Shown: positions 16,831-34,207 of the stretch, one piece after another
Numbering within the stretch: the first letter of the stretch is position 1
Layout of the letters: each line of letters starts with the position of its first letter
IMG/VR virus record: IMGVR_UViG_3300020048_000032
Coordinates: 19,147 to 83,146 of that record
Length of the DNA stretch: 64,000 nt
Direction: 5' to 3' (one strand)
DNA from: a virus
Lineage: Duplodnaviria; Heunggongvirae; Uroviricota; Caudoviricetes
The notes under the pieces: generated by a model
The model's database searches: none
Seen by the model: only the letters and a program-made list of their open reading frames with translations
Told to the model about the DNA's origin: nothing
Position numbers and translations under genes: made by a program

Positions 16831-17232
16831 TGGCTCTATACATTCGTACTTACAGCACTACTAGTATAGACACCGTGCGTTGTAACTCTGACCATGACAA
16901 CCCCATAAGTTGAGCAGTTAGATAGCATGCTCAGGCTTTCTCACCCTGGTAATTCGCAATACCAGAATCGGTAAGTAAGTATCTTCGTCAAGACTTACTT
17001 ATCTTATGGTTTCTCGTCGACTGCAACCATCAAACTCCGACTGCCCCTTGACCATATACTTTAACTAGGGTAAGTGCCTGTAAGTACTGTTGGATTCGAA
17101 CCAACGGCTCAGCCATTACCAATCAACGATAACTCGTTAACTCGTAATGATGAATACCGATATGTGCCTCGGTATAACGGCTAACTGTCTAGCCAGTTAT
17201 ATTTATAGTGCATACTGGTTAGCACATAGTTT

Positions 17233-17360
17233 TCTTCCAGTAAGGATTTGCACCTTACACGATTGTCGACCAAACACAATAACTCCATATACGTTTATTG
17301 TGAGTCACCAGTATGAACCATCGTTCAAGCCTGTGTGTCTACCTATTCCACCATGGAAGA
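17233..17360 (-). ncRNA. tRNA-like structured RNA element, copy E2
   Basis: Closing stem TCTTCCA/TGGAAGA (compensatory relative to E1); GTG-GAATAGGTAGA-CAC; hairpin GTAAGG-TGCAAAT-CCTTAC. Confidence 0.5.
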
Positions 17361-17529
17361 ATCTTAGCTCCCACTTACTGGTAGGGTACACCATATCTAG
17401 TAGGTTGGCTATGTCCCTACATCTCTTTAAGACCACTGTATTCTTCGATGTATGCGTTGAAAGTATTCTCCGTAATAAGCGTTGTTGATTCGTGGTGTGG
17501 CAGCTGCCTGTTCTGCCCTTAGATAAATA

Positions 17530-17643
17530 TTTCTTGGCAAGGAATCGTCACCTTGCACTGCTGTCCTAATTGGTGTTCACCGTCCCAGCACACCAGCAAA
17601 ATTGAACCAAACCTGTTGCGTCTCACTTTTCCGCCACAAGAAA
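17530..17643 (-). ncRNA. tRNA-like structured RNA element, copy E3 (divergent)
   Basis: Closing stem TTTCTTG/CAAGAAA; GCG-GAAAAGTGAGA-CGC; hairpin GCAAGG-TGACGATT-CCTTGC. Confidence 0.4.
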
Positions 17644-19191
17644 TATTAATGTAGGCGTTCCAATCCTACTTCCGTCGCTGGCTTACTCAATCCTATAAGA
17701 GTTACCTTGGCGTTATCGACGAACCTTTCGGGTGTTTCCCAACTCCTGGATGGTTATCCGATTCTGTCGCATACTGGCATATGCATTGAACTTTGTTACA
17801 TACTCTCCATATGTAGTCCAACTAGAGACTCTTTTTTCGTAAAGAAAGAGCCTTAAACGTTAAAATGGTCTGGATTATTTATCACTATTCTAGCATGGCG
17901 CTAGCGCCATGCCGCCATACAGGGGCGGAGGGAGCCAATGTCGAACCTTACTCTATCCATCATTCGAGTTCGTGGCATCGGGAATTTTAGCTCTACCCGT
18001 AAGAGTACTAGTTATAGGTTTATCGTCTCCAGACCGACTAGATAGCATACTATCATCTGACCTAGTTTCCGTCTCATAGGCTGACAGTGAATACTTACGT
18101 TTCACATGAAAGGATTGCTCCCTTATTCTGGTTGATTACGAGCCATAACTCGCTTTCGCCCGCGCATTTACGAGCCCTAGGTTGCTGGTTTAGCGACACG
18201 GCTTGTCGGATAGTCTGTGGATTGTGGCCACATTCTCATCATGATGGTGTATGCACTCTCCCTTTAAACTCAAGCTTCATGAGTACCATCACTAATACCG
18301 TTCTCTTTGGCACACGGTAACACTGTGCGATTGGCAATACCGCCTATTTCACTGTCGTCGGGTAAGCAACGTATAGTTCTTAAGGAACCACAAATTAAAT
18401 CGCGATTAATCTGCAGTCCCTCATCCCGCTCATACGTCAGGATTGCCACAGCGAACTATAAAGTCTTATCTTCTAGTGGTATCTATACGAAGATATCGTG
18501 GTGTAGATTTTGTTTACGTGTTCCTCGCGAGTCTACGCTTTTTTGTCCTACAAACACTAGCCTTATTCTGTAGCTTAACATAATACGCTTCTTAGGGCGT
18601 CAAATTTGCTCCCTTTTCTGGAAGACTTTCGCTCGTTTTTGAGACCATACTCACATGGTTAGTGAGAACTAATAGACCTTGCGAGGTTATAGTATTGGCC
18701 ATAGAGTGAGCATTTTTATAACTTGCTCAGGTTAACACATTTTATATATACCCCGTACTAGATAGAGGAGCTGCCCTTGATGTTACTCCAGGGAAACAGC
18801 AGTGTATTGGTAGTTTTTAGACGTGTCCGGTCTTGTATATTACCACATAGTGGTTTATACCAATTTAGGTACCAACTGTCGGACTTGCACCGACATCCCC
18901 CGTGGTCATCGCCCATATTGAGTGGACGACTACTGACAGGGCCTCTGCTAATTGATAAGTAGGTTGGTATAATGATGGTTCCGCCTGCGGTTTTACGCAT
19001 ACTGTAGCGACGCCTATTGAAGGTCGTTAGTCTTCTGTCTCTGGATTAACAGTCCAGTATGTTACTTTACACTATTTAGGTTTTTCAAGTGGCGAAACCG
19101 TGAAGTAGTAAATGGATTTTGTCGAGAGGTTTGCTCCGGAGCTACTCAGTTTTGTTCCATTTCACGCGGCCATTATAACGACCGCATATTA

Positions 19192-19845
19192 TTAGTCTAC
19201 TTTTTCGAATACATCTAAAACATATCCTAAAGCATCTTTCTTACGGGTATTCCTTAATAGGATACTCTCATCTATTTTAATCTTTCCATTCTCATCGGTT
19301 ACTACATCATTGCGACCTGTAACAGTAAATAAATATTCTCTAGCATACCATTCTTCCAAGAAATGATAATTCTCTTTTGGCAACCTGCCTACAATATTTG
19401 CAGGCGTATGCTCTGGAACAGGTTTATAATCTACTACAGCAATTGATACGTTTAAGTGATTCCTACTGTCCAGCTTAGCACCATGAATATGACCATGGAT
19501 ATTTAATACTGAGTCATTAACCTTGATGGGTTCGTGACTAAGCACAATGCGTTTAGTAAAATAAATAGGTCTATCATGCACTTCTGTAAAATAAGTATAG
19601 TACTCATTAATAGGCCTGTTGTCATGATTTCCCATAATAAGAATTTTCCTGCCATTCAATTTGCGAACATTTTCTGCTTCGCCTATATCACCTAGGATAT
19701 AGAGTACATCATTTAATTTAACTACTTTATTAATTTGTTCTATAATAAAATTGTCATGTTCTTGAATTGTTGAAAACTGCGTTCTCTCGAACTTTAAAAT
19801 ATTAGCATGACCGAAGTGAAGGTCAGAGATAAAGTATGTGTTCAT
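19192..19845 (-). CDS. calcineurin-like metallophosphoesterase (candidate end-healing phosphoesterase for RNA repair)
   Basis: Motifs SDLHFGH, LGDIGE, MGNHDN, HGHIHG. Confidence 0.7.
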   Translation of the reverse strand: MNTYFISDLHFGHANILKFERTQFSTIQEHDNFIIEQINKVVKLNDVLYILGDIGEAENVRKLNGRKILIMGNHDNRPINEYYTYFTEVHDRPIYFTKRIVLSHEPIKVNDSVLNIHGHIHGAKLDSRNHLNVSIAVVDYKPVPEHTPANIVGRLPKENYHFLEEWYAREYLFTVTGRNDVVTDENGKIKIDESILLRNTRKKDALGYVLDVFEKVD

Positions 19846-19867: not shown

Positions 19868-21058
19868 TTAGTCTTGTGCTTTATAATTAAATAACGTTTT
19901 AAGATGTGTTACTACTTCATATTGCTCAGACACCAACTTCTTAATTTCTTCCGCTGGTTTATATGCATCTGGTGCTTCATCCAAAGTACTTTCATTTACA
20001 GAAGCTGACCAAATGTCTTTCATAGTTTCTTTGAAGTCTTCTACGTTCAAGGTTTTCTTAGCAGTAGACCTGCTCATGGTTCTACCCGCACCATGGGGCG
20101 CAGAATTGTTCCAGGTGAGGTTTTCTTTACCCTGGCATATTAACGTGCCGTCTCTCATATTAAGAGGAACCAGGAATAACCCCGAGGCTCTAATAGCACC
20201 CTTACGAAGAATCATTTCATTGAAATCAATATAGTTATGTACTGATTCAATTTTTTGTCCGACTATCCAACCCATTTTATTAAAAATAGTTTCAGCAATC
20301 ATTCTTCTATTTTTGTAAGCAAACATCTGCGCAATCTCCAAATCATTAAGGTAAGCACCCATTTCAGTTCCTGTTAAAAACGCTAAGTCTTTACTTTGGT
20401 TTAATTCATCTTCGTGAGCTTCCTTATAAGCTTTAACTTCTCTTTCAATTTCTTGAGCTTTGCCTTCTACTTTTAATCTTGCGATTAATGCCTGTACTCC
20501 AGAATTCTTAACTAAGTCTTCTGCTTTATCTTGATGATGACGCGCTACCTGTAAGCCCAGGTTTCTCGAACCTGTATGGATAATCAAGTAATGATTTGTC
20601 CCATCCGATTCAACAGAAATAAAGTGGTTTCCTCCTCCAAGAGTACCCATAGAACATTTAATTCTACTTGCTGTCTTCGCGGGCAAAGGAGTAGATAATC
20701 CAGCTAATAAGAATCCTACATCAAAATTCTCTACTTCGTGTACCTGCATTCCTGATGGTATGTAATTGTTTATTACGGATTGTAGCTGTTCAAAATCAAT
20801 ATCCTGGGCAGGAATCTTATATGCAACTACACCACAGCCAATATCAACACCAATTAAATTTGGTACAATACGGTCTGTAATAGTCATAGTTGTTCCAATA
20901 ACACAACCAGCTCCTGCATGGACATCTGGCATAATAACAATATTTGAATTCAAAGAAGCAGGGTGACTAATAAGTCTTGCAATTTGTGCAATGGCCTCTT
21001 GCTCAATGTTATCAGTTGTAACTAATGCATTAGCGTATTTTCCTTTTAGTTCAAACAT
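19868..21058 (-). CDS. rtcB: RtcB-family RNA ligase (3'-phosphate/5'-hydroxyl)
   Basis: 396 aa; GGNHF motif, metal-binding His/Cys pattern, C-terminal NSAPHGAGR. Confidence 0.85.
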   Translation of the reverse strand: MFELKGKYANALVTTDNIEQEAIAQIARLISHPASLNSNIVIMPDVHAGAGCVIGTTMTITDRIVPNLIGVDIGCGVVAYKIPAQDIDFEQLQSVINNYIPSGMQVHEVENFDVGFLLAGLSTPLPAKTASRIKCSMGTLGGGNHFISVESDGTNHYLIIHTGSRNLGLQVARHHQDKAEDLVKNSGVQALIARLKVEGKAQEIEREVKAYKEAHEDELNQSKDLAFLTGTEMGAYLNDLEIAQMFAYKNRRMIAETIFNKMGWIVGQKIESVHNYIDFNEMILRKGAIRASGLFLVPLNMRDGTLICQGKENLTWNNSAPHGAGRTMSRSTAKKTLNVEDFKETMKDIWSASVNESTLDEAPDAYKPAEEIKKLVSEQYEVVTHLKTLFNYKAQD

Positions 21059-22329: not shown

Positions 22330-22403
22330 TGGCGGGAACACTAGGAATTGAACCCAGGTCAGTGAGGTTGGAGCTCACGATTTTGCCACTAAACTATATT
22401 CCC
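22330..22403 (-). tRNA. tRNA-Trp(CCA): tRNA-Trp(CCA)
   Basis: Hand fold: acceptor GGGAATA/TGTTCCC, anticodon arm GTGAG-CTCCAAC-CTCAC, T-arm CTGGG-TTCAATT-CCTAG, G-CCA. Confidence 0.8.
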
Positions 22404-22404
22404 A

Positions 22405-22479
22405 TGGTTGCTCGGAAGGGATTCGAACCCTCGACCTCCGGGGTATGAACCCGACACGCTACCGCTGCGCTACCCAGCT
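22405..22479 (-). tRNA. tRNA-fMet(CAT): tRNA-Met(CAT), initiator-like (three G:C pairs in anticodon stem; 1:72 mismatch)
   Basis: D-arm GCGC-AGCGGTA-GCGT; anticodon arm TCGGG-TTCATAC-CCCGG; T-arm GAGGG-TTCGAAT-CCCTT; ...CCGAGCA-A-CCA; acceptor has an A1 x A72 mismatch. Confidence 0.6.
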
Positions 22480-22646
22480 ATAAATTAAATTGTCGGAAAG
22501 GTTAGATTGGTTACTAACACTCGTTGCTATTCCCTACTCCCCCGTAGTGGGCATATCTTCGATATACCTGGTTCACCTCGGCAGAGGGTTATATTCACAA
22601 CATCCCTCCCATGAGGGTGCGCTTGATTTATCGCTACTTTCCGATA

Positions 22647-22722
22647 TGGTGCCCTCTCGGTGAATCGAACACCGATTTGATGCTTACAAGGCATCTGTAA
22701 TAGCCTTTATACATAAGAGGGC
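22647..22722 (-). tRNA. tRNA-Thr(TGT): tRNA-Thr(TGT)
   Basis: Acceptor GCCCTCT/AGAGGGC; D-stem TGTA/TACA; anticodon arm GATGC-CTTGTAA-GCATC; T-arm CGGTG-TTCGATT-CACCG; A-CCA. Confidence 0.75.
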
Positions 22723-22727
22723 ATTTA

Positions 22728-23147
22728 CTACATATGCTTATCTGAATATTTTTTACGACCTACTCTACCATTTCCCATGTTTAGACTCCGGTAAGTTGAA
22801 GTTAAACTGTGACAATTAGGACACAACAATGTTAGATTATCCTCTGACATATTGTCATGATGTCCATCGATGTGCTCTACTTCCAAAGGTATTCTACCTG
22901 TAGTATGATTTATCTGATGCCACCCACACTGTGCACATTGACTGTCATACTTCTCGAATAGGTATCTCCTAACATGGCTAGATATTGAATATTCACCTGC
23001 TGCACCACTGACCGCTCCGATTTTCCACTTATCAATAAAACTCTTATATTGATAATTAAGTTGACACTTTTGTGAGCAGTATTTAGTTGCTCTGTGTTTG
23101 TATATTAATTCTTTTCCACAATGTATACAATGCTTTTCTTTCCTCAT
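22728..23147 (-). CDS. HNH homing endonuclease with N-terminal zinc ribbon
   Basis: CIHCGK...CSQKC; EVEHIDGHHDN...CPNCH (HNH motif); sits inside the tRNA cluster. Confidence 0.7.
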   Translation of the reverse strand: MRKEKHCIHCGKELIYKHRATKYCSQKCQLNYQYKSFIDKWKIGAVSGAAGEYSISSHVRRYLFEKYDSQCAQCGWHQINHTTGRIPLEVEHIDGHHDNMSEDNLTLLCPNCHSLTSTYRSLNMGNGRVGRKKYSDKHM

Positions 23148-23174
23148 TACTCATCCTTTCTAAGGTGTTCGGAT

Positions 23175-23203
23175 GTAAGCCCCAGATGAGGGGGCTTACT
23201 TTT
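23175..23203 (+). terminator. strong GC stem-loop followed by a T-run on the plus strand
   Basis: GTAAGCCCC-agatgag-GGGGCTTAC-TTTT. Confidence 0.35.
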
Positions 23204-23381
23204 ACCTATATAATACTTGCAAATATTATACAGAACCATTAAATCTTATTGCCCTCAGTAAGTGTGCATTGTTAAGAGGCATCTGAGGTACTGTCAATAC
23301 TGAGCAACCAGCGGGACTTTAACCCACATTCTCCACACAATCACACGTGTGCCATTCTAATTAAAATATGGTTGCATAAGT

Positions 23382-23460
23382 TGGACGAGGAAGGAGTTGA
23401 ACCTTCATACCTAAACTTGTTAACTGAGCACTCAACGCTTTACCCTTAAGCTACTCGTCC
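23382..23460 (-). ncRNA. tRNA-like gene with aberrant anticodon arm (pseudo-tRNA or non-canonical tRNA)
   Basis: Perfect acceptor GGACGAG/CTCGTCC, D-arm GCTT-AAGGGTA-AAGC and T-arm GAAGG-TTCAACT-CCTTC, but I found no 5-bp/7-nt anticodon stem-loop. Confidence 0.35.
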
Positions 23461-23590
23461 ATATGATGCCTGTTGTTTAAACAGGGAGGCATCACCCTAT
23501 GCCACAATTGTTACTGACGGAATGTGGGAAACCAATGTCATGAATCATCAGTTTAATTAGGAGATGAAACTGATAAAGAACCTTAAAATT

Positions 23591-23677
23591 TGGTGAGTTA
23601 GGTAGGATTCGAACCTACGAACCCGTTCAGGGGACAGAGTTACAGTCTGCCTGCTTTAACCACTTGCATACTAACCC
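23591..23677 (-). tRNA. tRNA-Tyr(GTA): tRNA-Tyr(GTA), class II
   Basis: Acceptor GGGTTAG/CTAACTC; anticodon arm GCAGA-CTGTAAC-TCTGT; variable arm hairpin CCC-TGAAC-GGG; T-arm GTAGG-TTCGAAT-CCTAC; A-CCA. Confidence 0.75.
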
Positions 23678-23678
23678 A

Positions 23679-23755
23679 TGGTGGACCATGTAGGACTTGA
23701 ACCTACAACCAACCGGTTATGAGCCGGGAGCTCTGCCAATTGAGCTAATGGTCCA
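23679..23755 (-). tRNA. tRNA-Met/Ile(CAT): tRNA-Met(CAT) elongator type, or tRNA-Ile(CAT, lysidine)
   Basis: Acceptor GGACCAT/ATGGTCC; D-arm GCTC-AATTGGCA-GAGC; anticodon loop CTCATAA; T-arm GTAGG-TTCAAGT-CCTAC; A-CCA. Confidence 0.7.
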
Positions 23756-25400: not shown

Positions 25401-27650
25401 TTAATCCTCCTGTTTTAGCAAGTTTTTAAATAATAGTTTCTTGCGCTCTATGTCTCTACTTAATAAGGTTTCTGTTACTGTTCTATAGGTAACTTCATCC
25501 ATACCTGCAACATTATAATATTTATTTACTGCCTCAAATAAGGCAACGCTCTGCTCAATGTTTTCACTTGTAAATCCCTCAACTGCAAATTTATAAGTAA
25601 GTGATTCTGCTGCAGACCTATAATCTTTAGGCCCATGAATTGCTAATTTTTCTAGGTCGTCCACTAACTTCAGTTTATTACTATTTGAAGCATAGTATTG
25701 TACGCCAGGTATTTTAGACAATCCAAAAGATTCTATTGGGTTATCTTCATCATACTCTTTAGAAAGTGACCCTAATGGAATACCTGTGTCTCCAGGTTCG
25801 TAGTCTCCGCCAGCTCCACCCGTTGGGGTTTCTACGGGTGTCTCTTCTCCCGTTGAAAGTTCTTCAGGTTGCCCAAGCTCTCCAAAGTCTTCGCCACCCA
25901 AGTCTAGCGGGCTTCCACCACCCATACTAAATGAATCACTACCACCAAAGCTTGGAGCAGCTATGCCACCTCCAGGTGCCTCTAGGTCTAATCCAGCTTG
26001 GTCTGCTGTTTGAGCTTCTTTCTCTGTAAGTAGTCCGTTTACTTTTAAATCTAGAACGGTACTATACATTGTTTTGCCCGTGTTGATACTATTAACTCTT
26101 GCTTCATTCAATTGAGAATTTATATTCAAATGACTGATTGCAATTGCTTTACTTAATAGGTCATCGAATATTTCTTTTATTCTCGGAGAATCCATATACT
26201 CATCAACAAGTTCTGTATATAATTGAACCAAGTTTACAGTGTCTGGACCATACTGAGAAACAGATTTTACAATATTATCAATTACTTCTATTCTCTTTAG
26301 AGTTTCATCAAGACGAGAAAGTTCTTCTGCACTTGATGGATTTGTCATTCTAATTGCATACTTCTTCGTATCATAGACACGTCCACGACTTACAAGGTAT
26401 GCATCAATTAAGTCTTCAACACCACGGAGTAATGCAAGCTGAACTCGTCTTACTGCTCTGGTATATCGGATATCTAATTTGGCCAGTGTCGCATCACCAG
26501 GGTTGGTTGGCAAGGATTCTTCAAAACCTAAGAATGTCTTAGGGATTTGTAACCCTGCAAACATCTTACTTCTAAAGTATTCCACGTCAACAATAAATTG
26601 AGTTTCTACGTTACCGCCTAATTCTTTTACGTCAATAGCACCTACGCCTTTATTAACTGAATTAAACAAGGCATCAGCGGCTGGACGATAAATTCTTTGT
26701 GACTGATATTCACCAGTAGCACCATCAAATCTTGGTTTAGCATCGAATAATCTTTTTAATTTATTTATTACTCTTGCTGCGCCTTCACCTGTTGCTTCAC
26801 CAACTTCAACGTTAAAGATACGTACATATTCTGAACGAGCTATCTTATTCGTAATAACAGTATCTTCAAGAAGTCGAAGGATACGATAATTTACACGGAC
26901 AGGTTCTAATATTGAACGGCCTTTTAATATGTTTAATTCTAAAGGAGAAATTGTCCCACCTTCATTTATTGCCTGGATGACAACAGAGTTTACTCTTGGC
27001 GTATCATCTAGATAGAAGTGGGTAAACTTGTTTATAGCATAAGCATCAAATTCACTTGTACTATGCGAATGTACTGCAACCTTACGGTCGTCTCTCTTTA
27101 CAACAAATCCTTCTGAATCATCTTCATGGTCTATGAGATGAAGGATATTCTCTGGTACAGATACAGGTTTTATATTGATTAAGTATCCATGTTTATTATA
27201 CATGTTCTCTAAATATAAATCTCCGAACTGTGCAATTTGATATGCCCAACCCCATAGCTTATAGTCAATCTGAATATTACTTAAAAAGTTTGTAAGCTCT
27301 GCCCCCAGTGCAGGGTCTTCTGTATCAATCCATACCGGAACATTCTTAATGTTATCAAATATTGTTGCATCATCTGCGTATGAACGAAGTGCTGCGGCAA
27401 TAATTACTTCATTTTCCATATTCTTGTATTCGCTGTACTTATCGTTGTGTACGGCTAACGGATTTCTTAAATCATTAATAATTTTATTTAGATTCACTAA
27501 CGAGGTTGAATCTATAAATTCCCCAAAATTTCCTTGTGAGACTGGTTTATTTAAAAATTTAGTAAAATCATCACTAGGATTAGTGGATGAAATAACATTG
27601 CTTTTAAATAAACGGGAAAGCGACCATCTCCAATTTGTGCGTTCAGCCAT
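25401..27650 (-). CDS. large virion-associated protein, portal-like (assignment tentative), with Gly/acidic low-complexity insertion
   Basis: 750 aa from MAERTNWRW (GGAGG RBS); size and position near terminase; segment GGGSPLDLGGEDFGELGQPEELSTGEETPVETPTGGAGGDYEPGD. Confidence 0.4.
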   Translation of the reverse strand: MAERTNWRWSLSRLFKSNVISSTNPSDDFTKFLNKPVSQGNFGEFIDSTSLVNLNKIINDLRNPLAVHNDKYSEYKNMENEVIIAAALRSYADDATIFDNIKNVPVWIDTEDPALGAELTNFLSNIQIDYKLWGWAYQIAQFGDLYLENMYNKHGYLINIKPVSVPENILHLIDHEDDSEGFVVKRDDRKVAVHSHSTSEFDAYAINKFTHFYLDDTPRVNSVVIQAINEGGTISPLELNILKGRSILEPVRVNYRILRLLEDTVITNKIARSEYVRIFNVEVGEATGEGAARVINKLKRLFDAKPRFDGATGEYQSQRIYRPAADALFNSVNKGVGAIDVKELGGNVETQFIVDVEYFRSKMFAGLQIPKTFLGFEESLPTNPGDATLAKLDIRYTRAVRRVQLALLRGVEDLIDAYLVSRGRVYDTKKYAIRMTNPSSAEELSRLDETLKRIEVIDNIVKSVSQYGPDTVNLVQLYTELVDEYMDSPRIKEIFDDLLSKAIAISHLNINSQLNEARVNSINTGKTMYSTVLDLKVNGLLTEKEAQTADQAGLDLEAPGGGIAAPSFGGSDSFSMGGGSPLDLGGEDFGELGQPEELSTGEETPVETPTGGAGGDYEPGDTGIPLGSLSKEYDEDNPIESFGLSKIPGVQYYASNSNKLKLVDDLEKLAIHGPKDYRSAAESLTYKFAVEGFTSENIEQSVALFEAVNKYYNVAGMDEVTYRTVTETLLSRDIERKKLLFKNLLKQED

Positions 27651-27760
27651 AACATTACCTCCATTATTTGAATGTAGTATAGGTATGTCGTGAAACATAC
27701 CTATCGTTCTCAACATATAAGCTATACAGACTTACAGTTATAATATAATTTTGGCGGATA

Positions 27761-28198
27761 TTAAGCTTTATTTTCTGTTTCTTGGTGTACAATTAAGAAA
27801 GTTTTTAACAATGCATGAAACATGTTCTCTAATGCAAAAGATTTATATGACATTTGTGCATGTCGGTCCTCATCTGCAATAAAATTGCTCATAATTACAT
27901 CTTCTACAAAGTATCTATCGTCACCTTCTCCAATATCTGCTGCAAAAATGTGCACAACGGCCTCTCCAATCGCAATATCTACATCCATATCGTTGCTACT
28001 CATCACTGGAATAGGTAATCCTGTGACATTAAAGGTAATTGTTAGGATAGATGGGTCAGTTTCTTCTTCCTGTACCGATTCACTGAGCTTTATCCCAGAG
28101 ATATTGTATCCAAGAGCTTGTACTGTCTTAAAAATCTGTCCTATGTCGTATGCGGGCGGACGCTGGTCTAGCGTCGCTGTTTGTAATTGTTCAGTCAT
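27761..28198 (-). CDS. hypothetical protein
   Basis: Start placed at MTEQLQ (AAGGAGA RBS) to avoid a 100-nt overlap. Confidence 0.45.
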   Translation of the reverse strand: MTEQLQTATLDQRPPAYDIGQIFKTVQALGYNISGIKLSESVQEEETDPSILTITFNVTGLPIPVMSSNDMDVDIAIGEAVVHIFAADIGEGDDRYFVEDVIMSNFIADEDRHAQMSYKSFALENMFHALLKTFLIVHQETENKA

Positions 28199-28508
28199 TA
28201 GTCTCCTTAGTGTTTTTAATATTTTGTAAATCCTGAATTCCAACTGCTTCATAAGTCTTATAAAAAATATCTGGTTTACATGGATACAATTCTCCATTTA
28301 CTCCTTGAATAACAAAATCACCTTCATTTACTGTCATGTCTCCTTCAAGAGTTCTAATAACTGTTAGAGTAGTGCTCTTCGATTTTGCCGTAATCATCAC
28401 GCGTCCGTCTTGCCAAGCTTCAACAAACCATTTTGGCATGTTATCGGAATAGTCACTAAAGTATTCAAATGCCTCAATTATAATTGGTCTCTTTTTATAA
28501 AGTGCCAT
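28191..28508 (-). CDS. hypothetical protein
   Basis: ORF track. Confidence 0.5.
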   Translation of the reverse strand: MALYKKRPIIIEAFEYFSDYSDNMPKWFVEAWQDGRVMITAKSKSTTLTVIRTLEGDMTVNEGDFVIQGVNGELYPCKPDIFYKTYEAVGIQDLQNIKNTKETND

Positions 28509-28520
28509 ACGTCCTCCTTG

Positions 28521-28844
28521 TTAATTTTTATTGGCTTGCAAATTACTATATAAAACTATCTCAAGTAAAGAGCCAGTCATCAAGTCATAAATATAGTCTA
28601 AGCTAACAATATCAAATAATAAATCTTTCCCATTGATATCTAGCACAACAAACTCTTTAACAGTTTGATAATGTTTGAAGTCAATAAGCTTGCCTTGTGG
28701 TACGTTTACTCTTACAAAGAATTCGCGTCCTGGATAAATATTATTAGGGGTTTTACCTTGAGTAATATTATAATCCTTAACCGTTATGGTTATAAATTTA
28801 ATATTGAGCAGTCTTGCGAAAATATTTCTAAAAAAGTTTTTCAT
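28521..28844 (-). CDS. hypothetical protein
   Basis: ORF track. Confidence 0.5.
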   Translation of the reverse strand: MKNFFRNIFARLLNIKFITITVKDYNITQGKTPNNIYPGREFFVRVNVPQGKLIDFKHYQTVKEFVVLDINGKDLLFDIVSLDYIYDLMTGSLLEIVLYSNLQANKN

Positions 28845-28847
28845 AGT

Positions 28848-29552
28848 TTATTTATGATACACATAGTTGAAATAATCTATAGTAGTGTAACTCTGTACAA
28901 TTAGCGAGAATACTCTGTTTAATACTAACTGTTTAGTGTGCGTTTCCGTGCTAAAATTACTAATGTGTTCCTTGTACTCCTCTTTTGATTCTGCTAGATA
29001 CATATGTAAACCATCCATAAAATCTGCTAAAATCATACATATAAGTATTCTAATTTGTAACTTTGGGTCCTTGTATTTATTACCAGCATCTATTACTAAA
29101 TGATTCATATTTAAAATTGATACGTACGTTCTTGAGTCACTTCCTCTTGCAAGCAGAGTTGCATAATCCCACGCATAATCATTTTTTCTTAGTATTCCTG
29201 AAGTGGCTACAACATCTCCGGAGCCATTATGAAATACCGTATTTAAAGATAGGTCATTATGACAGATAACATGTGGGACTAACTGGCTATCAATTTTTAC
29301 TGCTAACGGTCGAATCATCCGGTCGTATAATTTTAAAGTCTGCTTAAGTACATCATCAGTATCTTTTAGCTCTTTCGCTTCTCTAACTAAACTATCTAGG
29401 TGTGAAGTAATATCAAAAGACTTAAAGCTAGGGTCTGTTGGCATATCATGGTAAGCCATCAACGCAGTGGTAAATGACTCTCTTTTATTTATTACGTCGT
29501 GTATACCTGTATAGGCGCCATACCCTGCGGGCACCTTCTCTAAAGCAATCAT
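28848..29552 (-). CDS. phosphotransferase/kinase-like protein (APH/choline-kinase fold?)
   Basis: HVICHNDLSLNTVF resembles the HxDxxxxN catalytic loop. Confidence 0.35.
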   Translation of the reverse strand: MIALEKVPAGYGAYTGIHDVINKRESFTTALMAYHDMPTDPSFKSFDITSHLDSLVREAKELKDTDDVLKQTLKLYDRMIRPLAVKIDSQLVPHVICHNDLSLNTVFHNGSGDVVATSGILRKNDYAWDYATLLARGSDSRTYVSILNMNHLVIDAGNKYKDPKLQIRILICMILADFMDGLHMYLAESKEEYKEHISNFSTETHTKQLVLNRVFSLIVQSYTTIDYFNYVYHK

Positions 29553-29749
29553 AACTTGTTAGTAAAGCCGAGCAACTCTACAACCTCATACAATACTTTA
29601 CTTTTAATCTTTGGTGTAAATGACGCAATAATATTTCTGTTTATTGCATCATACACTACTAAGTTGTGGTCGGCATTTATTTCTAATAATAGTTTCCCTG
29701 AAGGGTCTTTATAGGACCCCCAGACATCTGTAATCGTTTTATATGACAT
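29549..29749 (-). CDS. hypothetical protein
   Basis: ORF track. Confidence 0.45.
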   Translation of the reverse strand: MSYKTITDVWGSYKDPSGKLLLEINADHNLVVYDAINRNIIASFTPKIKSKVLYEVVELLGFTNKL

Positions 29750-29760
29750 AACAATACCTC

Positions 29761-31440
29761 CTATTTCAGTTCTACTAATACAGAGTTTTCTGTACTAACA
29801 AATAATGATATGGCCGATACTGCGTTTTCTAAAACTGATTTTGCAACTAGGTACGGGTCATATACTTTACAATCTTCTTTATCTAATACTTCTAATTTCA
29901 TTGTGTCTAGATTAATATACAGTATAGTACTTTCTAGTTTTTTGTGATTCATGCCCTCTGCTGTCTTTACAAGCTCTTCATAATTTACTAAGCCGCTATT
30001 CATTGGGATAAGCTGGAAGGGTAATCGTAATGAATCCATCAGTAATAAGAATCCGATATATTCATTTGGACGATTCGCTTTCATATCTGAAATTTCTTGA
30101 GCATAGTTTTTCAAAAGCCAGTAGTACGCTTTGAAGTAGGTATACCCTCCTCCAATAACAACACCTTCTTTGCTTGCGGCATGAGTTGCTAGAACTGCAT
30201 CATCATATTTTAACTTACGTTCTGTGCGTTCAATGTCGGTTACTCCGCCTACTTCTATAGTAACTGCAATGCCATTCAACTTAGAAATACGCACAGCCAA
30301 GTTTGCAAAATCTCCTGCTTGACCTTCGTCCGTCATATTCCCTTGTGTTTCTTTTAGCAATGCAATATGGTCTTCAACTGCTTTTTTATTTTCTAGAGTA
30401 TCTTGTGCCACAACATAAGTAATCTTTTTACTCGCTTTAATATTCTTAGCATGTCCCACTGCATTTACTAAATCATTGATGTCTAGTTTTGAGACTTGCG
30501 CTGAGATAATCTTTGCACCCGTAATTATGCTTAAATCTTGGAATGTACCCATATGGTCAACTGTTTGTGGAACTTCAACTGGAATAATCGGTACGCTTAT
30601 TTTATCAGTTCTCATAAACCAATTGTAATGAATAACTTTAAGTGCTTCTCCGTCTAACTTGTTACATAATACAATAAGAGGTGTATCGTAAGTAAGGCCA
30701 TGACGTTTAATTAACGCTGCGTAGGTATTGATAATTGCCGACGCATCTTCCGTTGTCATAATCATCCTGTCTAAAATTAGAACTAAGGGGTCAATACAAT
30801 CAATAGGTTTATTTGAGAACATTTCTTGATTTGCAAACCCACCGGTAAACTCATACCCATTTGAATAGTTTACTGCATCTTCGCTATTCCTAGAAAGACG
30901 AATATTAACCAATCCATCTGGACCAAGTTTATCTCGTAGCTCTCCAACAATCTTACCAATTTCTTTTGAACCAGATGAGCTCTCTGCAATATTAATAAGA
31001 ATGTCTTTAGTCACGTCTTTGTTTACTACGCTTTTGAGATATTCTAGAATTAAATCCTTTGCGCGATTTATACCTTTTCTAACAAGCACCGGATTTGATA
31101 ATTCCTTCTGCTTCATTAACTCAATATACTTTGAAATCACACTGGCTGCAATAAGATATGTACTTGTTGTACCGTCTCCTACATCCTCCTCTGTTTTCTT
31201 TGAGGAGGTATAGACTAGTTTTGCTCCAAGCAGCTCTAGGTCTGAAAGCGTGCTCAATGCGAACTCAACTACTCTTACCCCATCATCTGTAAGCAACGGC
31301 TGACTTCGTTCCGCTCGGGTGTCCATAATGGCTACATTGCGACCATACGGACCTAAGGTACATCTGACAATATCTGCTACCTTCTGTACCCCTTCATTCA
31401 TTTGTATTTGTGTTTCTGGATTCTTAATAAGTGATTTCAT
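29761..31440 (-). CDS. groEL-like: GroEL/Cpn60-family chaperonin
   Basis: VRCTLGPYGRNVAI matches GroEL VKVTLGPKGRNVVL; EEDVGDGTTSTYLIAASVI matches ANDAAGDGTTTATVLAQAI; NPVLVRKGINRA matches NPMDLKRGIDKA. Confidence 0.8.
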   Translation of the reverse strand: MKSLIKNPETQIQMNEGVQKVADIVRCTLGPYGRNVAIMDTRAERSQPLLTDDGVRVVEFALSTLSDLELLGAKLVYTSSKKTEEDVGDGTTSTYLIAASVISKYIELMKQKELSNPVLVRKGINRAKDLILEYLKSVVNKDVTKDILINIAESSSGSKEIGKIVGELRDKLGPDGLVNIRLSRNSEDAVNYSNGYEFTGGFANQEMFSNKPIDCIDPLVLILDRMIMTTEDASAIINTYAALIKRHGLTYDTPLIVLCNKLDGEALKVIHYNWFMRTDKISVPIIPVEVPQTVDHMGTFQDLSIITGAKIISAQVSKLDINDLVNAVGHAKNIKASKKITYVVAQDTLENKKAVEDHIALLKETQGNMTDEGQAGDFANLAVRISKLNGIAVTIEVGGVTDIERTERKLKYDDAVLATHAASKEGVVIGGGYTYFKAYYWLLKNYAQEISDMKANRPNEYIGFLLLMDSLRLPFQLIPMNSGLVNYEELVKTAEGMNHKKLESTILYINLDTMKLEVLDKEDCKVYDPYLVAKSVLENAVSAISLFVSTENSVLVELK

Positions 31441-31452
31441 TTTTCTTCTCCT

Positions 31453-33573
31453 TTAGTCATCGAATTCGTCATTAAACATTTTGTCCAATTGGTCAAAGAT
31501 GTCTTTATTTTGTCTAATCTTTTTACCATTAAATTCTTCTGGTAATACTGTATCACGACCAAGCTGTGCATCCAAAGATGCTTCTTGTATTCTAGCTAAC
31601 TCACTTGCTGAAATTACTTTCTGCTGATTTATACTAGCGTTATAGAATGCTCCTGTAACTCCGTCCGCAAGGTCTTTACTGCCGGAAATCGGGTGGTCTA
31701 TCTTACCTGTACGTTTGTCTTCAATCAATTCAGTAATTTCTGTTTCAAGAAGTAAATTCGTGATTGTGTCCACGCGTTCTTCATAAATAGATTTTCTAAA
31801 CGCTAGGTATGCTACGGGAGTTCTATCCACAGATACGGTCGTCATATTAAATCCGTTTTGTAACAACTCTTGCTGTAAGAATAAGGACTGATACGTATCA
31901 GTTGATACTGATGCAATATTCAATCCAGCATTACGTAAATGTACAATAAGCTCTAATAGCTTTCTATATGGAATCATATCCCCTACAGGAGCTTCTATAC
32001 CCATTGCACCTAGTACATAGTATGTATAGTCTCTAACTCGGACTATAATACCTTGGTCAAACCGGTCAACATCTCTGTACTCCGATGACCTAGCAACAAT
32101 TCCTATCCCAGTTCTATCATTATTTTTAGAGGTATCTAAGTGAATGTATACCTGTAAATGTCTAAGATTATCCGGTATTCTTGATAGGTCAACCAATGGA
32201 ACTAAAGAGTCTGCAGTACCTAATCCGGATTTTACAACCTCAACCTTAAAGATATTGTTTCTAACTTTACTAATACATTTAACGTATTTATTTGCATCAA
32301 TGTATTTAGAGCTGGAAGACAGCGCAATGCCCGCATCGTCTGTTAAAGCTTTGTCAGCATCTAATTCAAAATCTTTTCTATACTCTTCTGGTACATCTAA
32401 GACTTTGCGGCCCTGACTTTCAATCAATGCCCAGTCTTCGTCTGGAGAAAGTATTCTTGTACTATTGTACTTGTCTCCGACAGCTACTTTAAATCGCTTC
32501 CCAGAATACTTTCCTTTGATATTCCAAATTGGCTCATCAACAATAAGTACAGTAGGGTCTTGACGATACTTGTTAGCATACATTTCCAATGCTTCATTCT
32601 CGGCTTTCTTCGATGATACCATGAATATAACGCCAGGTATCTTTCCATAAACCATGAATCGAGATTGCATACGACGTTTAATCGCCATGTAAACTTGCAT
32701 GATTTCCGTTGCAGTAAATGATTCATTAGTATTTGGTACTTGCTTCCCTTTTTCATAGAAGTTCATTTCATCCAAGAATGCACAGAATACATCATATCCG
32801 GTAAAGTGAGTTACTTTTGACCCAATAAGAATTGTTATATCTTTACTTGGTTCAAAAGTTAATTCATCTATTGCAGCTTGTGGGACTTCATTTCCGGCTA
32901 GTACTTGATTTGTAACTAGGGTTGCTGTTCGACCCCTTAGAATCCCGTGTTTAATAAACCACGGAGATTGTTTTAGAGTTGCTTGAAGTTTGCCATAACC
33001 AATACCAGTAACGTGTTGTAAGTCAATATTAAATATTGCTTCCGCTATTTTAGAACCACCCATTAATCCATAATACTCTGCAGGTGATTTTAAACACATC
33101 AATCGATATAAAGTATATGCCATACCAATTACAGCTACGGTAGACTTACCGATACCAATAGCCCCAGTTAAAACTACTTCCATAATTTTGCTATCTGGGG
33201 CAAATATCTTTTCTAAAACTTTTATCCAGTAAGGATAAATAGAAGTACCACCATCTGTTGATTTCCCTAAATATTCTGGGTCACAAATAAATGTACGGAT
33301 ATCTACTGGTATTTCTTCGTAGTCTTCTGCTCTGATTCTATTATAAATTGCTGATTCACCAGCCTCAACCGTTTCCGCTAGGATTTCTAAGAAAACAGTA
33401 TATTCCTCGTCGGTCATTCTGTCCACTAGGCTAAGCAGTTCTTCACTCAATACCTTTGTGGACAGCTCCGCCATTACTTGTTTAAACTTCTCTTTGGACT
33501 CTTTTGGGAACTGCTTTAGCTTCTCAATAGTCTCCTTTAATGCTTCTGCAGTTTCGTTTGGTACATTAGTCAT
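31453..33573 (-). CDS. terL: terminase large subunit
   Basis: Walker A GAIGIGKST; size 707 aa; start MTNVPN with GGTGAGG RBS. Confidence 0.7.
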   Translation of the reverse strand: MTNVPNETAEALKETIEKLKQFPKESKEKFKQVMAELSTKVLSEELLSLVDRMTDEEYTVFLEILAETVEAGESAIYNRIRAEDYEEIPVDIRTFICDPEYLGKSTDGGTSIYPYWIKVLEKIFAPDSKIMEVVLTGAIGIGKSTVAVIGMAYTLYRLMCLKSPAEYYGLMGGSKIAEAIFNIDLQHVTGIGYGKLQATLKQSPWFIKHGILRGRTATLVTNQVLAGNEVPQAAIDELTFEPSKDITILIGSKVTHFTGYDVFCAFLDEMNFYEKGKQVPNTNESFTATEIMQVYMAIKRRMQSRFMVYGKIPGVIFMVSSKKAENEALEMYANKYRQDPTVLIVDEPIWNIKGKYSGKRFKVAVGDKYNSTRILSPDEDWALIESQGRKVLDVPEEYRKDFELDADKALTDDAGIALSSSSKYIDANKYVKCISKVRNNIFKVEVVKSGLGTADSLVPLVDLSRIPDNLRHLQVYIHLDTSKNNDRTGIGIVARSSEYRDVDRFDQGIIVRVRDYTYYVLGAMGIEAPVGDMIPYRKLLELIVHLRNAGLNIASVSTDTYQSLFLQQELLQNGFNMTTVSVDRTPVAYLAFRKSIYEERVDTITNLLLETEITELIEDKRTGKIDHPISGSKDLADGVTGAFYNASINQQKVISASELARIQEASLDAQLGRDTVLPEEFNGKKIRQNKDIFDQLDKMFNDEFDD

Positions 33574-34207
33574 TAACCTCACCCGATACTTTTATAATGG
33601 AAGCGATGCGGCTATCATGTAAATAATAACTCGCGCCATCTGTTCTGTTTTTGGTTGGATAAGAGAAGACTTTTGCATACACATTAACTGCATCATCTTT
33701 ATTTAATGTCTTAATGATTTCTGCCATTCGGCCGACACCTGTTAGTTTTGCAATAACTCTACGCCCATCTGCATTTTCTGTCATAACAAGAATACTGATA
33801 GAGGTAATATCTTTACTCACTGTCTCTGGACTTATTTTAATAATTGTACCTGTCATATCGAGAACGGAGCCGGTTGCTAAATGAAGGTTTAACTCTTCGT
33901 TTTCTTTTAACTCTTCTGGAGTAACTATCGCAACCGTCTCTAACGACACCGCGATATCGCTAAGGGATTCTGTTATTTTTGATTTAACTAAGTCACCCGT
34001 ATACTTAATATAATTACCCACTGTAAACAGTGCTGTATCAAACTTGCCTTGCTCAAAGTAAAGTCTCAGGTGGTCAACTTTAGAGTTCTTATCCCCACGA
34101 TATGACAATACTGTTACGCTATTAAATACTTTTCCCTCATGATAGTGATTGGCTATTGGGGCTTCTTCTACGACTACTAATCCTTTAACTGTTGCTTTTG
34201 TTAACAT
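33566..34207 (-). CDS. hypothetical protein
   Basis: ORF track. Confidence 0.5.
   Translation of the reverse strand: MLTKATVKGLVVVEEAPIANHYHEGKVFNSVTVLSYRGDKNSKVDHLRLYFEQGKFDTALFTVGNYIKYTGDLVKSKITESLSDIAVSLETVAIVTPEELKENEELNLHLATGSVLDMTGTIIKISPETVSKDITSISILVMTENADGRRVIAKLTGVGRMAEIIKTLNKDDAVNVYAKVFSYPTKNRTDGASYYLHDSRIASIIKVSGEVND

What the first reader, a model, noticed from the sequence alone, without database searches (positions are those of the whole stretch)
29761..31440. Phage-encoded GroEL-family chaperonin with no recognisable GroES partner
The 559-aa ORF aligns by eye to GroEL across the ATP-binding and equatorial motifs: TLGPxGRNV, DGTTT/S and NP..(K/R)G(I/V). Viral Cpn60 homologs are rare; the Pseudomonas phage EL gp146 class is the known precedent. 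The 66-aa ORF downstream (29549-29749) has no GroES-like motifs, which points to a single-ring, co-chaperonin-independent enzyme. It lies in a block with terminase and a kinase-like gene, so it may serve virion assembly.
Basis: partly seen in the sequence, partly recalled or inferred. Interest (0 to 1): 0.6.

Follow-up and report, generated by a model that had tools for sequence, protein, structure and literature searches.

The report
Divergent phage GroEL-like chaperonin, no GroES
An uncultured 148-kb phage carries its own GroEL-type protein-folding machine between its DNA-packaging and portal genes, with an intact ATPase, a rebuilt client-binding surface and no detectable GroES lid; this adds a new lineage to an already known class of phage chaperonins rather than a new kind of system.

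Summary
Window 29761-31440 (-) encodes a 559-aa Cpn60/GroEL-family protein (Pfam 2.9e-33, PHROG 'chaperonin groEL' 9e-85, group I fold with TM up to 0.88).

It is not of the phage EL gp146 class. With about 14 metagenomic relatives it forms its own fully supported lineage, at most ~30% identical to any other chaperonin, and it scores below every NCBIfam GroEL cutoff.

No GroES/Cpn10 was found in the window, in 20 kb of flanking sequence, or in the relatives' loci, although the same profile recovered three phage GroES genes as controls. Only 1 of 9 canonical GroES/substrate-groove residues is kept, and the GGM tail and inter-ring contact residues are missing. Independence from a co-chaperonin is therefore plausible but unproven: 64 kb of the genome was not seen, and cryptic partners like T4 gp31 exist. 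'Single-ring' cannot be tested here.

The gene sits in a clade-specific six-gene block between TerL and the portal, always with a degenerate choline-kinase/APH-fold gene. A distant relative, Bacillus phage HSE3, has GroES but no GroEL.

Phage GroELs are not rare (243 phage records), and GroEL-only phages are documented. Verdict: a new variant of a known kind, of moderate interest.

The parts
29761..31440 (-). 559-aa divergent group-I-type chaperonin (Cpn60/GroEL family)
   Evidence: ORF; Pfam PF00118 2.9e-33; PHROG 5725 9e-85; PDB GroELs ~1e-47; AF2 pLDDT 83.6; Foldseek TM 0.83-0.88 to GroEL/mtHsp60; NCBIfam GroEL models 224-235 bits, below cutoffs of 352-582.
31162..31179 (-). Codons for GDGTTS (aa 88-93), the phosphate-binding loop that includes D89 (= E. 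coli D87)
   Evidence: Alignment to E. coli GroEL; G88, D89 and G90 are invariant across 49 homologs.
30271..30864 (-). Apical domain (about aa 193-390) with a remodelled helix H/I groove: F202, N204, E206, M207, S234, I237, L267, H271, Y272 in place of E. coli Y199, S201, Y203, F204, L234, L237, L259, V263, V264. It also has 8-aa and 4-aa insertions.
   Evidence: The positions fall inside predicted helices 230-247 and 265-275.
31441..31452 (-). 12-nt TerL-chaperonin spacer carrying the Shine-Dalgarno site (AAAGGAGAAG spans the TerL stop codon)
   Evidence: Sequence read; no promoter or terminator signal above chance in 25-37 kb.
31453..33582 (-). Large terminase subunit (709 aa), immediately upstream and apparently co-transcribed
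   Evidence: PHROG 2699 (weak); tblastn to annotated TerL of Bacillus phage HSE3 (42%), Maribacter and Vibrio phages; PF27249 on the orthologs.
29549..29749 (-). 66-aa ORF directly downstream (11-nt gap, TAGGAGGT RBS); small clade-restricted protein, not GroES-like
   Evidence: No Pfam, PHROG or NCBIfam hit; GroES HMM E=1; hhalign vs GroES probability 0.1%. Homologs confirmed in L001 and L021; same-sized 71-aa ORFs at the same position in L028-30 (homology not tested); absent from L002 and L020.
28848..29552 (-). 234-aa choline-kinase/APH-fold homolog lacking the N-lobe. The HNDLSLN catalytic loop is kept, but the metal-binding Asp is replaced.
   Evidence: BLASTP to L021_316 2e-59 and to L003_322 8e-14; L003_322 matches Pfam Choline_kinase 7.3e-20; alignment. 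Adjacent to or near the chaperonin in every locus examined.
28521..28844 (-). 107-aa beta-rich protein found in the clade-A loci compared (L020's 91-aa match is marginal, E=0.009; 108-aa ORFs at the same position in L028-30 untested); function unknown. Tested as a cryptic co-chaperonin without support.
   Evidence: only 6 proteins in the database; pLDDT 60.6; no Cpn10-like fold hit.
28191..28508 (-). 105-aa protein (PHROG 419/4502, weak PGDYG-like match). It belongs to the inserted block in the window, but no homolog was confirmed in the other loci (L001's second 105-aa ORF gave no BLAST hit).
27761..28198 (-). ~145-aa protein conserved in all five clade-A loci compared by sequence (145-aa ORFs at the same position in L028-30 untested). 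The longest ORF runs to 28297, but homologs support the later start.
25401..27716 (-). T4 gp20-type portal protein, which closes the block
   Evidence: Pfam Portal_T4 3.6e-43; PHROG 213; tblastn to the SP-15, HSE3 and LIS04 portals.

Best explanation
The ORF encodes an ATP-driven, ring-forming chaperonin of the group I (GroEL) type. It belongs to a small, previously undescribed phage lineage. It is translated from the same tightly packed late operon as the large terminase and the portal. Most likely it works without a canonical GroES lid, binding and releasing non-native phage proteins in an ATP-dependent way, as the lidless phage chaperonins EL gp146, OBP gp246 and AR9 gp228 do. Its apical binding surface has been rebuilt for a narrow set of phage clients.

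Shown: family membership, fold, intact nucleotide-binding and hydrolysis residues, the divergent apical groove, the missing C-terminal GGM tail, the absence of any detectable Cpn10 in 84 kb, and the conserved gene neighbourhood.

Inferred: ring assembly, ATPase activity, independence from a co-chaperonin, and the identity of the clients (head/packaging proteins or the adjacent kinase-fold protein).
For: Family and fold.

Catalytic residues: D53, D89, T91, T92, D414, GGG430-432 and D528, with TLGP, are all conserved in the window protein and across both subclades apart from one A-for-G in P0005's GGG.

Constraint: about 14 homologs keep the full length and a clade-specific groove.

No GroES: Pfam on 79 small ORFs gave no Cpn10 at E<0.009. 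GroES HMMs found nothing in six-frame translations of the window, 20 kb of flanks and six related loci (best E~0.9). The same HMMs recovered an unannotated phage DAC16 GroES (6.5e-18) and HSE3 gp047 (5e-9). No Cpn10 is on record in the flanks.

Groove: 1/9 identical to E. coli, including Y203->E/D and L234->S/T. That compares with 9/9, 8/9, 5/9 and 3/9 in phage GroELs that have a GroES, and 2-4/9 in EL, Miami and AR9-like.

Other: no GGM tail, R197->G, hinge G375->I/V, inter-ring residues not kept. No lid-sized apical insertion.

Operon: 11-12-nt gaps and strong RBSs.

Synteny: TerL-GroEL-...-portal in L001, L002, L020, L021 and L028-30, whereas HSE3 and SP-15 have TerL directly followed by the portal.

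Precedent: EL, OBP and AR9 chaperonins function without a co-chaperonin (PMC7185714, PMC9598537).
Against: Only 84 of ~148 kb of this genome was searched, and the 20 kb of flanks came from other assemblies of what appears to be the same phage (their identity to the window was not checked), so a GroES elsewhere is possible. T4 gp31 shows that a co-chaperonin can be undetectable by sequence. Flavobacterium phage elemoC keeps only 3/9 groove residues yet has an adjacent GroES, so groove divergence does not exclude a co-evolved partner. The oligomeric state, ATPase activity and clients are all untested. The placement between TerL and the portal could reflect an insertion hotspot rather than functional coupling. 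In clade B the gene follows polA-SfsA instead.
Confidence: 0.55

Rival explanations
1. The phage chaperonin is lidded by a phage-encoded co-chaperonin that was not recognised. It could be a Cpn10 in the unseen ~64 kb, or a sequence-divergent partner like T4 gp31 among the conserved small neighbours (the 107-aa, ~145-aa or 66-aa proteins).
For: Phage GroES genes lie next to or near GroEL in immuto, elemoC, Calle_1 and DAC16. ElemoC keeps only 3/9 groove residues yet has a GroES. The 107-aa family is beta-rich, GroES-sized and found across the clade-A loci. From general knowledge, T4 gp31 has no detectable sequence similarity to GroES.
Against: No Pfam, HMM or hhalign signal. The fold search of the 107-aa model gave no Cpn10 hit, although the model is weak. 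The 66-aa ORF is absent from L002 and L020. None of the clade-A small neighbours has a homolog next to the clade-B chaperonins.
Confidence: 0.2
2. The phage chaperonin borrows the host's GroES. This would be the mirror image of T4 or HSE3, which supply a GroES to the host GroEL.
For: Marine et al. 2017 raise this possibility for their GroEL-only viral clade. The hinge residues G192 and G410 and the ATPase machinery are intact. Host GroES would be abundant.
Against: Eight of the nine groove residues that contact the GroES mobile loop and substrates are changed, including Y203->E/D and L234->S/T. From general knowledge of GroEL mutagenesis (Fenton et al. 1994), single changes at these sites abolish GroES binding. 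EL gp146, with a similarly diverged groove, does not bind GroES (PMC7185714).
Confidence: 0.15
3. The protein no longer acts as a foldase. It might serve as a structural or scaffolding ring, or as a regulatory ATPase in head or packaging assembly, or it might be drifting towards loss.
For: The canonical substrate-binding residues and the GGM tail are lost. It scores below all NCBIfam GroEL cutoffs.
Against: Full-length conservation in about 14 homologs with every catalytic residue kept and a clade-specific groove that is itself conserved. This is the pattern of purifying selection on an active ATPase.
Confidence: 0.05

Closest known systems
Bacterial group I chaperonin GroEL (E. coli GroEL; PDB 1aon, 4ki8; E. 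faecium 9c0d)
   Same: Same three-domain fold (TM up to 0.88). Best sequence matches (E~1e-47, ~25-29% identity). All nucleotide-binding and hydrolysis residues conserved, and hinges G192 and G410 conserved.
   Different: Scores 224-235 bits against NCBIfam cutoffs of 352-582. Only 1/9 apical groove residues kept. R197 and G375 are replaced, the inter-ring contacts are not conserved, and there is no GGM tail. It has four 4-8-aa insertions and no groES partner gene.
Co-chaperonin-independent phage chaperonins: Pseudomonas phage EL gp146 (6tmt), OBP gp246 (6hdd), Bacillus phage AR9 gp228
   Same: Phage-encoded, GroEL-like, no GroES gene, diverged apical groove, R197-E386 pair lost (as in EL and OBP). 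This is the most likely working model (PMC7185714, PMC9598537).
   Different: A different lineage: E=7e-19 and 1e-14 to 6tmt and 6hdd against 1e-47 to GroEL, and it branches apart from EL, Miami and AR9-like in the tree. The genome is ~148 kb, not a jumbo phage. The gene sits between TerL and the portal and is linked to a kinase-fold gene.
Virioplankton 'GroEL' clade without neighbouring GroES (Marine et al. 2017, ISME J, PMC5649160)
   Same: Metagenomic viral GroELs that lack a co-chaperonin gene. The same two explanations apply: no co-chaperonin needed, or the host one is used.
   Different: The present clade has its nearest cultured relatives among phages of Bacillota (HSE3, SP-15, LIS04) and has a TerL-portal context that the paper does not describe.
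Phage groES-groEL pairs (Flavobacterium phages immuto and elemoC, Cellulophaga phage Calle_1, Bacteroides phage DAC16)
   Same: Phage-encoded group I-type chaperonins at a similar distance (~26-29% identity).
   Different: They carry a recognisable Cpn10 next to or near GroEL and mostly keep the groove (9/9, 8/9, 5/9, 3/9). The window clade has neither.
GroES-only phages (T4 gp31; Bacillus phage vB_BceM-HSE3 gp047)
   Same: HSE3 is the nearest cultured relative found: TerL 42%, portal 32%, and a shared replication module. Both phages intervene in the chaperonin system.
   Different: HSE3 encodes a GroES and no GroEL. The window phage encodes a GroEL and no detectable GroES, which is the opposite solution.

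Membership tests
Cpn60/TCP-1 chaperonin superfamily (Pfam PF00118) | Profile match above the curated threshold | tested here: met
   115.7 bits against a gathering score of 34.3, E=2.9e-33; PHROG 5725 full length 9e-85.
Cpn60/TCP-1 chaperonin superfamily (Pfam PF00118) | Equatorial-intermediate-apical three-domain fold | tested here: met
   AF2 model pLDDT 83.6; Foldseek TM 0.83-0.88 to GroEL and mtHsp60 chains over ~565 columns.
Cpn60/TCP-1 chaperonin superfamily (Pfam PF00118) | Nucleotide-binding and hydrolysis residues (GDGTT loop, D52, D87, D398, GGG414-416, D495) | tested here: met
   Window D53, GDGTTS 88-93 (T91->S), D414, GGG430-432, D528; the same in all clade members apart from one GGG variant, GAG in P0005.
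GroEL proper (group I equivalog, NCBIfam TIGR02348 / NF000592) | Score above the curated equivalog or subfamily cutoff | tested here: not met
   224.1 bits against 582.1 (TIGR02348); 235 against 397 (NF000592); 235.3 against 352 (NF009487).
GroEL proper (group I equivalog, NCBIfam TIGR02348 / NF000592) | Closer to group I than to group II chaperonins | tested here: met
   GroEL models E~1e-70 against thermosome/CCT 1e-18 or weaker; PDB GroEL 1e-47 against thermosome 8e-12.
GroEL proper (group I equivalog, NCBIfam TIGR02348 / NF000592) | Partner Cpn10/GroES gene | tested here: inconclusive
   None in 64 kb of window plus 20 kb of flanks or in six related loci, with positive controls. About 64 kb of the contig was not available.
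GroEL proper (group I equivalog, NCBIfam TIGR02348 / NF000592) | Conserved hydrophobic apical groove (Y199, S201, Y203, F204, L234, L237, L259, V263, V264) | tested here: not met
   Only L259 is kept (1/9); the mapping is the same in two alignments and lies in predicted helices H and I.
GroEL proper (group I equivalog, NCBIfam TIGR02348 / NF000592) | C-terminal Gly-Gly-Met repeat tail | tested here: not met
   The protein ends ...STENSVLVELK, and 22 residues are missing relative to E. coli.
GroEL proper (group I equivalog, NCBIfam TIGR02348 / NF000592) | Back-to-back double heptameric ring | not testable with these tools
   The inter-ring residues (K105, A109, E434, R452, E461, S463, V464) are not conserved, but this does not determine the oligomeric state.
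EL/OBP/AR9-type phage chaperonins | Sequence and phylogenetic affiliation with EL gp146, OBP gp246 or AR9 gp228 | tested here: not met
   6tmt 7e-19 and 6hdd 1e-14 against GroEL 1e-47. In the NJ tree, clade A+B has 200/200 support and is separate from EL+Miami (200/200) and AR9-like.
EL/OBP/AR9-type phage chaperonins | Functions without a co-chaperonin, always-open ring | not testable with these tools
   Biochemical and structural property. Only indirect support is available here: no GroES found and a diverged groove.
Group II chaperonins (thermosome/CCT) | Built-in helical lid protrusion in the apical domain | tested here: not met
   The largest apical insertions are 8 and 4 residues. Matches to thermosome/CCT cover only the N-terminal equatorial segment.
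Choline/ethanolamine kinase - APH fold (neighbour gene 28848-29552) | Profile match | tested here: not met
   The window protein has no Pfam or NCBIfam hit. Homology is shown only through a chain: BLASTP 8e-14 to L003_322, which matches PF01633 at 7.3e-20.
Choline/ethanolamine kinase - APH fold (neighbour gene 28848-29552) | Catalytic loop HxDxxxxN, metal-binding Asp and ATP-binding N-lobe | tested here: not met
   HNDLSLN is present, but the Asp of the D-x-E segment is replaced (VATSG) and about 80 N-terminal residues are missing. The motifs also degenerate in L001 (HGN), L002 (FNS) and L020 (NNI).

The most novel reading that the evidence does not exclude
The chaperonin and the degenerate choline-kinase/APH-fold protein that always accompanies it form a dedicated two-component system of this phage lineage. 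The kinase-fold protein would be either an obligate client or a non-Cpn10 cofactor of a lidless chaperonin, and the system would have been acquired as a cassette between TerL and the portal to serve portal, terminase or head assembly. That would be a chaperonin-cofactor pairing with no described counterpart.
Probability: 0.1. Interest if true: 0.7.

Novelty: new variant of a known kind. Interest (0 to 1): 0.4.

Why it matters
Three lidless phage chaperonins (EL, OBP, AR9) are the only experimental models for how a GroEL-like ring can work without GroES, and their natural clients are poorly defined. This lineage is an independent, more GroEL-like example from a mid-sized phage related to phages of Bacillota. 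It keeps the ATPase core intact while replacing almost the whole GroES/substrate-binding groove.

It also sits in a compact operon that offers a short list of candidate clients or cofactors: TerL, the portal, a kinase-fold protein and three small proteins. Set against a distant relative that encodes only GroES, it gives a natural comparison of the two ways a phage can take over the chaperonin system.

The practical value is as a target for expression and cryo-EM. It does not change current concepts.

Tried and rejected
(1) Near-identity DNA search of 28.8-33.6 kb against 50,697 phage records gave no match, so the phage is not in INPHARED.

(2) Single-sequence phmmer with E. coli and Flavobacterium-phage GroES gave nothing. 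It was superseded by the 4- and 6-sequence HMMs.

(3) The 66-aa ORF as the detached N-lobe of the kinase-like gene. L002's single 305-aa gene suggested this. I rejected it because L021 has both a 70-aa ORF and a full-length 316-aa kinase-like gene, and the 66-aa family has no similarity to the kinase N-termini.

(4) The 105-aa ORF between TerL and GroEL in L021 as a GroES. Rejected: it is a coiled-coil, Pro-rich sequence with no HMM hit, and it is absent from the other loci.

(5) The 107-aa conserved neighbour as a cryptic co-chaperonin. hhalign probability was 0.2%, only 6 homologs exist, the AF2 model is weak (pLDDT 60.6), and Foldseek gave no significant hit and no Cpn10. The result is inconclusive rather than negative.

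(6) A built-in lid. Rejected: the apical insertions are at most 8 residues.

(7) The first bootstrap tree with Biopython timed out and was redone with numpy. The tree is NJ on corrected p-distances, midpoint-rooted, without a group II outgroup, so only the well-supported groupings are used.

(8) The Vibrio phage VP-1 sequence aligned poorly, probably because I extracted the ORF wrongly. I ignore it.

(9) A capsid gene next to the block as a candidate client. Beyond the portal (lower coordinates) the window holds tRNA-repair genes and tRNAs, not a capsid module.
Full report
**1. The observation**

Window 29761-31440 (minus strand) holds a 559-aa ORF. Its ATG lies 12 nt after the stop of the upstream 709-aa gene and 5 nt after an AAAGGAGAAG Shine-Dalgarno site. 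The 66-aa ORF at 29549-29749 follows after 11 nt with its own TAGGAGGT site. No promoter-like or terminator-like signal in 25-37 kb exceeds the shuffled expectation. The genes therefore read as one tight operon.

The protein matches Pfam Cpn60_TCP1 (E=2.9e-33, 115.7 bits against a cutoff of 34.3). It matches PHROG 5725 'chaperonin groEL' over its full length (9e-85) and solved GroEL structures at E~1e-47. An AlphaFold2 model built on 49 homologs (pLDDT 83.6) superposes on GroEL and mtHsp60 chains with TM 0.83-0.88.

**2. Catalytic and functional residues**

I aligned the protein with a verified E. coli GroEL. Every nucleotide-binding and hydrolysis residue is present: TLGP 28-31, D53 (=D52), GDGTTS 88-93 with D89 (=D87), D414 (=D398), GGG430-432 and D528 (=D495). 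The only change is T91->S. All clade members show the same residues, apart from one GGG variant (GAG in P0005).

The nine apical residues that form the GroES/substrate groove are a different matter. Y199, S201, Y203, F204, L234, L237, L259, V263 and V264 become F, N, E, M, S, I, L, H and Y, so only L259 is identical. Two independent alignments give the same mapping, and the positions lie in predicted helices H and I.

Several other GroEL features are also missing:
- R197 of the R197-E386 pair is Gly.
- Hinge residue G375 is Ile or Val.
- The inter-ring contact residues are not conserved.
- The 22-residue C-terminal tail with the GGM repeats is absent.
- Insertions are small (8, 4, 8 and 8 residues), so there is no lid-sized protrusion of the group II kind.

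**3. Which chaperonin it is**

The exact protein occurs on a 148,196-bp metagenomic contig. The relatives fall into three tiers:
- nine at 56-79% identity (clade A);
- four at 36-38% (clade B), plus one fragment;
- everything else at no more than ~33%.

This held in 5.8 billion clustered proteins and in an exhaustive scan of 1.84 billion representatives. In a neighbour-joining tree, clades A, B and A+B each have 200/200 bootstrap support. They branch apart from the EL+Miami and AR9-like jumbo-phage chaperonins and are not nested among cellular or other phage GroELs. The tree is crude: distance-based, midpoint-rooted and with long branches.

EL gp146 (6tmt) and OBP gp246 (6hdd) match only at 7e-19 and 1e-14. 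NCBIfam's GroEL models are the best hits, but at 224-235 bits they fall far below the curated cutoffs of 352-582. The protein is GroEL-like, not a GroEL equivalog, and not of the EL class.

**4. The co-chaperonin question**

- Pfam on all 79 small ORFs of the window gave no Cpn10 at E<0.009.
- I built GroES HMMs from E. coli GroES and phage co-chaperonins. They recovered an unannotated 87-aa ORF upstream of the Bacteroides phage DAC16 GroEL (6.5e-18) and HSE3 gp047 (5e-9) as positive controls.
- The same HMMs found nothing (best E~0.9) in six-frame translations of the window, 10 kb beyond each end of it (from other assemblies of what appears to be the same phage; their identity to the window was not checked), and six related loci.
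- hhalign of the four conserved small-neighbour families against the GroES alignment gave probabilities below 1%.
- The best-conserved, GroES-sized neighbour (107 aa) has only six homologs. Its model is weak (pLDDT 60.6) and has no Cpn10-like fold match, so this test is inconclusive.
- The 66-aa ORF has confirmed homologs in two of the four other clade-A loci compared (L001 and L021) and is missing from L002 and L020; same-sized ORFs occupy its position in L028-30. It is unlikely to be an obligate partner.

As an empirical calibration, I counted canonical groove residues in other phage GroELs. Those with a GroES gene nearby keep 9/9 (immuto), 8/9 (DAC16), 5/9 (Calle_1) and 3/9 (elemoC). EL, Miami and AR9-like have no annotated or detected GroES in the ±2.5 kb I fetched, and they keep 2-4/9. 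The window clade keeps 1/9.

This favours independence from a canonical GroES. ElemoC, however, shows that a diverged groove can coexist with a co-evolved GroES. About 64 kb of the genome is also unseen.

**5. Genomic context**

Upstream is the large terminase. Downstream, in order, are:
- the 66-aa ORF;
- a 234-aa protein;
- a 107-aa protein;
- a 105-aa protein;
- a ~145-aa protein;
- a T4 gp20-type portal.

The order TerL-chaperonin-(66-71 aa)-kinase-like-~107 aa-...-~145 aa-portal recurs in L001, L002, L020, L021/22 and L028-30.

The nearest cultured phages are Bacillus phage vB_BceM-HSE3 (TerL 42%, portal 32%, plus a shared replication module at 25-39%), Bacillus phage SP-15 and Listeria phage LIS04. 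In HSE3 and SP-15 the portal gene directly follows TerL, and none of the six intervening genes has a homolog there. The 3.7-kb block is therefore specific to this clade.

HSE3 encodes a GroES (gp047) but no GroEL anywhere in its genome. Two distantly related phages have thus taken opposite routes.

The strong GGAGG-type ribosome-binding sites, 36% G+C, the c-di-GMP-II riboswitch and the cultured relatives all suggest a Bacillota host. This is an inference.

**6. The 'kinase-like' gene**

The 234-aa protein is homologous to 228-316-aa proteins next to every clade-A chaperonin (E down to 2e-59). It is also homologous (8e-14) to a 322-aa protein two genes downstream of the clade-B chaperonins, and that protein is a bona fide Pfam choline/ethanolamine-kinase member (7.3e-20).

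The window version keeps the HxDxxxxN loop (HNDLSLN). It lacks about 80 N-terminal residues and the metal-binding Asp. Other clade-A members degrade the loop in different ways. It is probably not catalytic.

A profile search found only four clusters of this family in the whole database, all beside these chaperonins. Clade-B phages share polA (36-50%) with the window phage but place the chaperonin after polA-SfsA, not after TerL. The chaperonin and the kinase-fold gene have therefore stayed together through rearrangement. This is the most unusual feature and the basis of the novel reading. It may also simply reflect shared descent of a small cassette.

**7. Mechanism**

Shown: a conserved, full-length group I-type chaperonin fold with an intact ATPase site, a remodelled but clade-conserved apical groove, no GGM tail, no detectable Cpn10, and co-transcription with the packaging genes.

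Inferred, by analogy with EL, OBP and AR9 chaperonins (PMC7185714, PMC9598537): a heptameric ring that binds non-native phage proteins and releases them on ATP hydrolysis, without encapsulation under a lid.

The clients are unknown. The operon suggests the portal, the terminase or the kinase-fold protein. The major capsid protein, which is the T4 precedent, is not in the window.

Ring number cannot be inferred from sequence.

**8. Novelty and verdict**

Phage GroELs are not rare. 243 phage records give hits, and Marine et al. 2017 describe abundant viral GroELs, including a GroES-less clade. JGI already labels relatives 'chaperonin GroEL'.

What is new is the lineage itself: at most ~30% identity to anything characterised, and separate from the EL type. 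Its near-complete replacement of the groove with a preserved ATPase is also new. So are its fixed place between TerL and the portal and its constant kinase-fold companion.

I rate it a new variant of a known kind, with interest 0.4.

Noticed in passing
window 15352-15434 (-): Cyclic-di-GMP-II riboswitch aptamer (Rfam RF01786, 59.8 bits against a gathering score of 53.5) directly upstream of a 179-aa ORF (14796-15335) that has no Pfam, PHROG or NCBIfam match. A phage-borne c-di-GMP riboswitch controlling an unknown gene may deserve its own look.
   Followed up: partly
window 16400-18700: A 2.3-kb stretch with raised G+C and no convincing ORF. It holds a skipping-rope RNA (RF02924, 17392-17527, 51.9 bits), a tRNA (16393-16466) and a tmRNA-like match below threshold (16789-16904, 37.8 bits against 47). 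ARAGORN found no tmRNA. The content of the rest is unexplained.
   Followed up: partly
window 22330-23754 (-), also 8007-8096, 13783-13856, 19011-19081: A cluster of tRNA genes (Trp, Met, Thr, Tyr, Met and others). One, at 23380-23461, is read by ARAGORN with a four-base anticodon 'gctc', i.e. an enlarged anticodon loop.
   Followed up: no
window 9846-10901, 13918-14718, 19192-19845, 19868-21058 (all -): A tRNA/RNA-repair gene set interleaved with the tRNAs: RNA ligase, nucleotidyltransferase, phosphoesterase and RtcB-type ligase. This fits a counter-measure against host anticodon nucleases.
   Followed up: no
window 15744-16331 (-) and 22728-23147 (-): A GIY-YIG-type homing endonuclease and an HNH endonuclease sit among the RNA genes.
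   Followed up: no
L012 2218-2481 (Bacteroides phage DAC16, MT074137.1): An 87-aa ORF annotated 'hypothetical protein' directly upstream of the equally unannotated GroEL is a clear GroES (HMM E=6.5e-18). The DAC phages therefore carry an unannotated groES-groEL pair.
   Followed up: yes
L023 4131-7093 (HSE3), L024 1500-6973 (SP-15), L003 2099-7117: The TerL genes of HSE3 and SP-15 are split (an intein-region ORF, and pieces spread over several kb), and the clade-B polA carries an intein. The window TerL and polA are uninterrupted.
   Followed up: no
L021 6579-6791 and 6773-7723: The gene calls on this Logan contig run a few codons past a table-11 stop codon. This may be an artefact of the gene caller's choice of genetic code.
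   Followed up: no
phage collection hits H1, H9, H12, H13, H82: Several unannotated records labelled as 'phage' (Staphylococcus phage SA 1306 Kay, Listeria phage LM 4-14-1, Enterococcus phages, a Salmonella Infantis contig) give the strongest GroEL hits. They look like bacterial groEL sequences in mislabelled or contaminated records, so the count of 243 phage records is somewhat inflated.
   Followed up: no
L008 1-10000 and L006 10250-20249: Beyond the window ends the phage carries T4-like baseplate genes (Phage_base_V, gp53-like) on one side. On the other it carries nucleotide-metabolism genes (thymidylate synthase, dNK-like, dGTP diphosphohydrolase-like).
   Followed up: no
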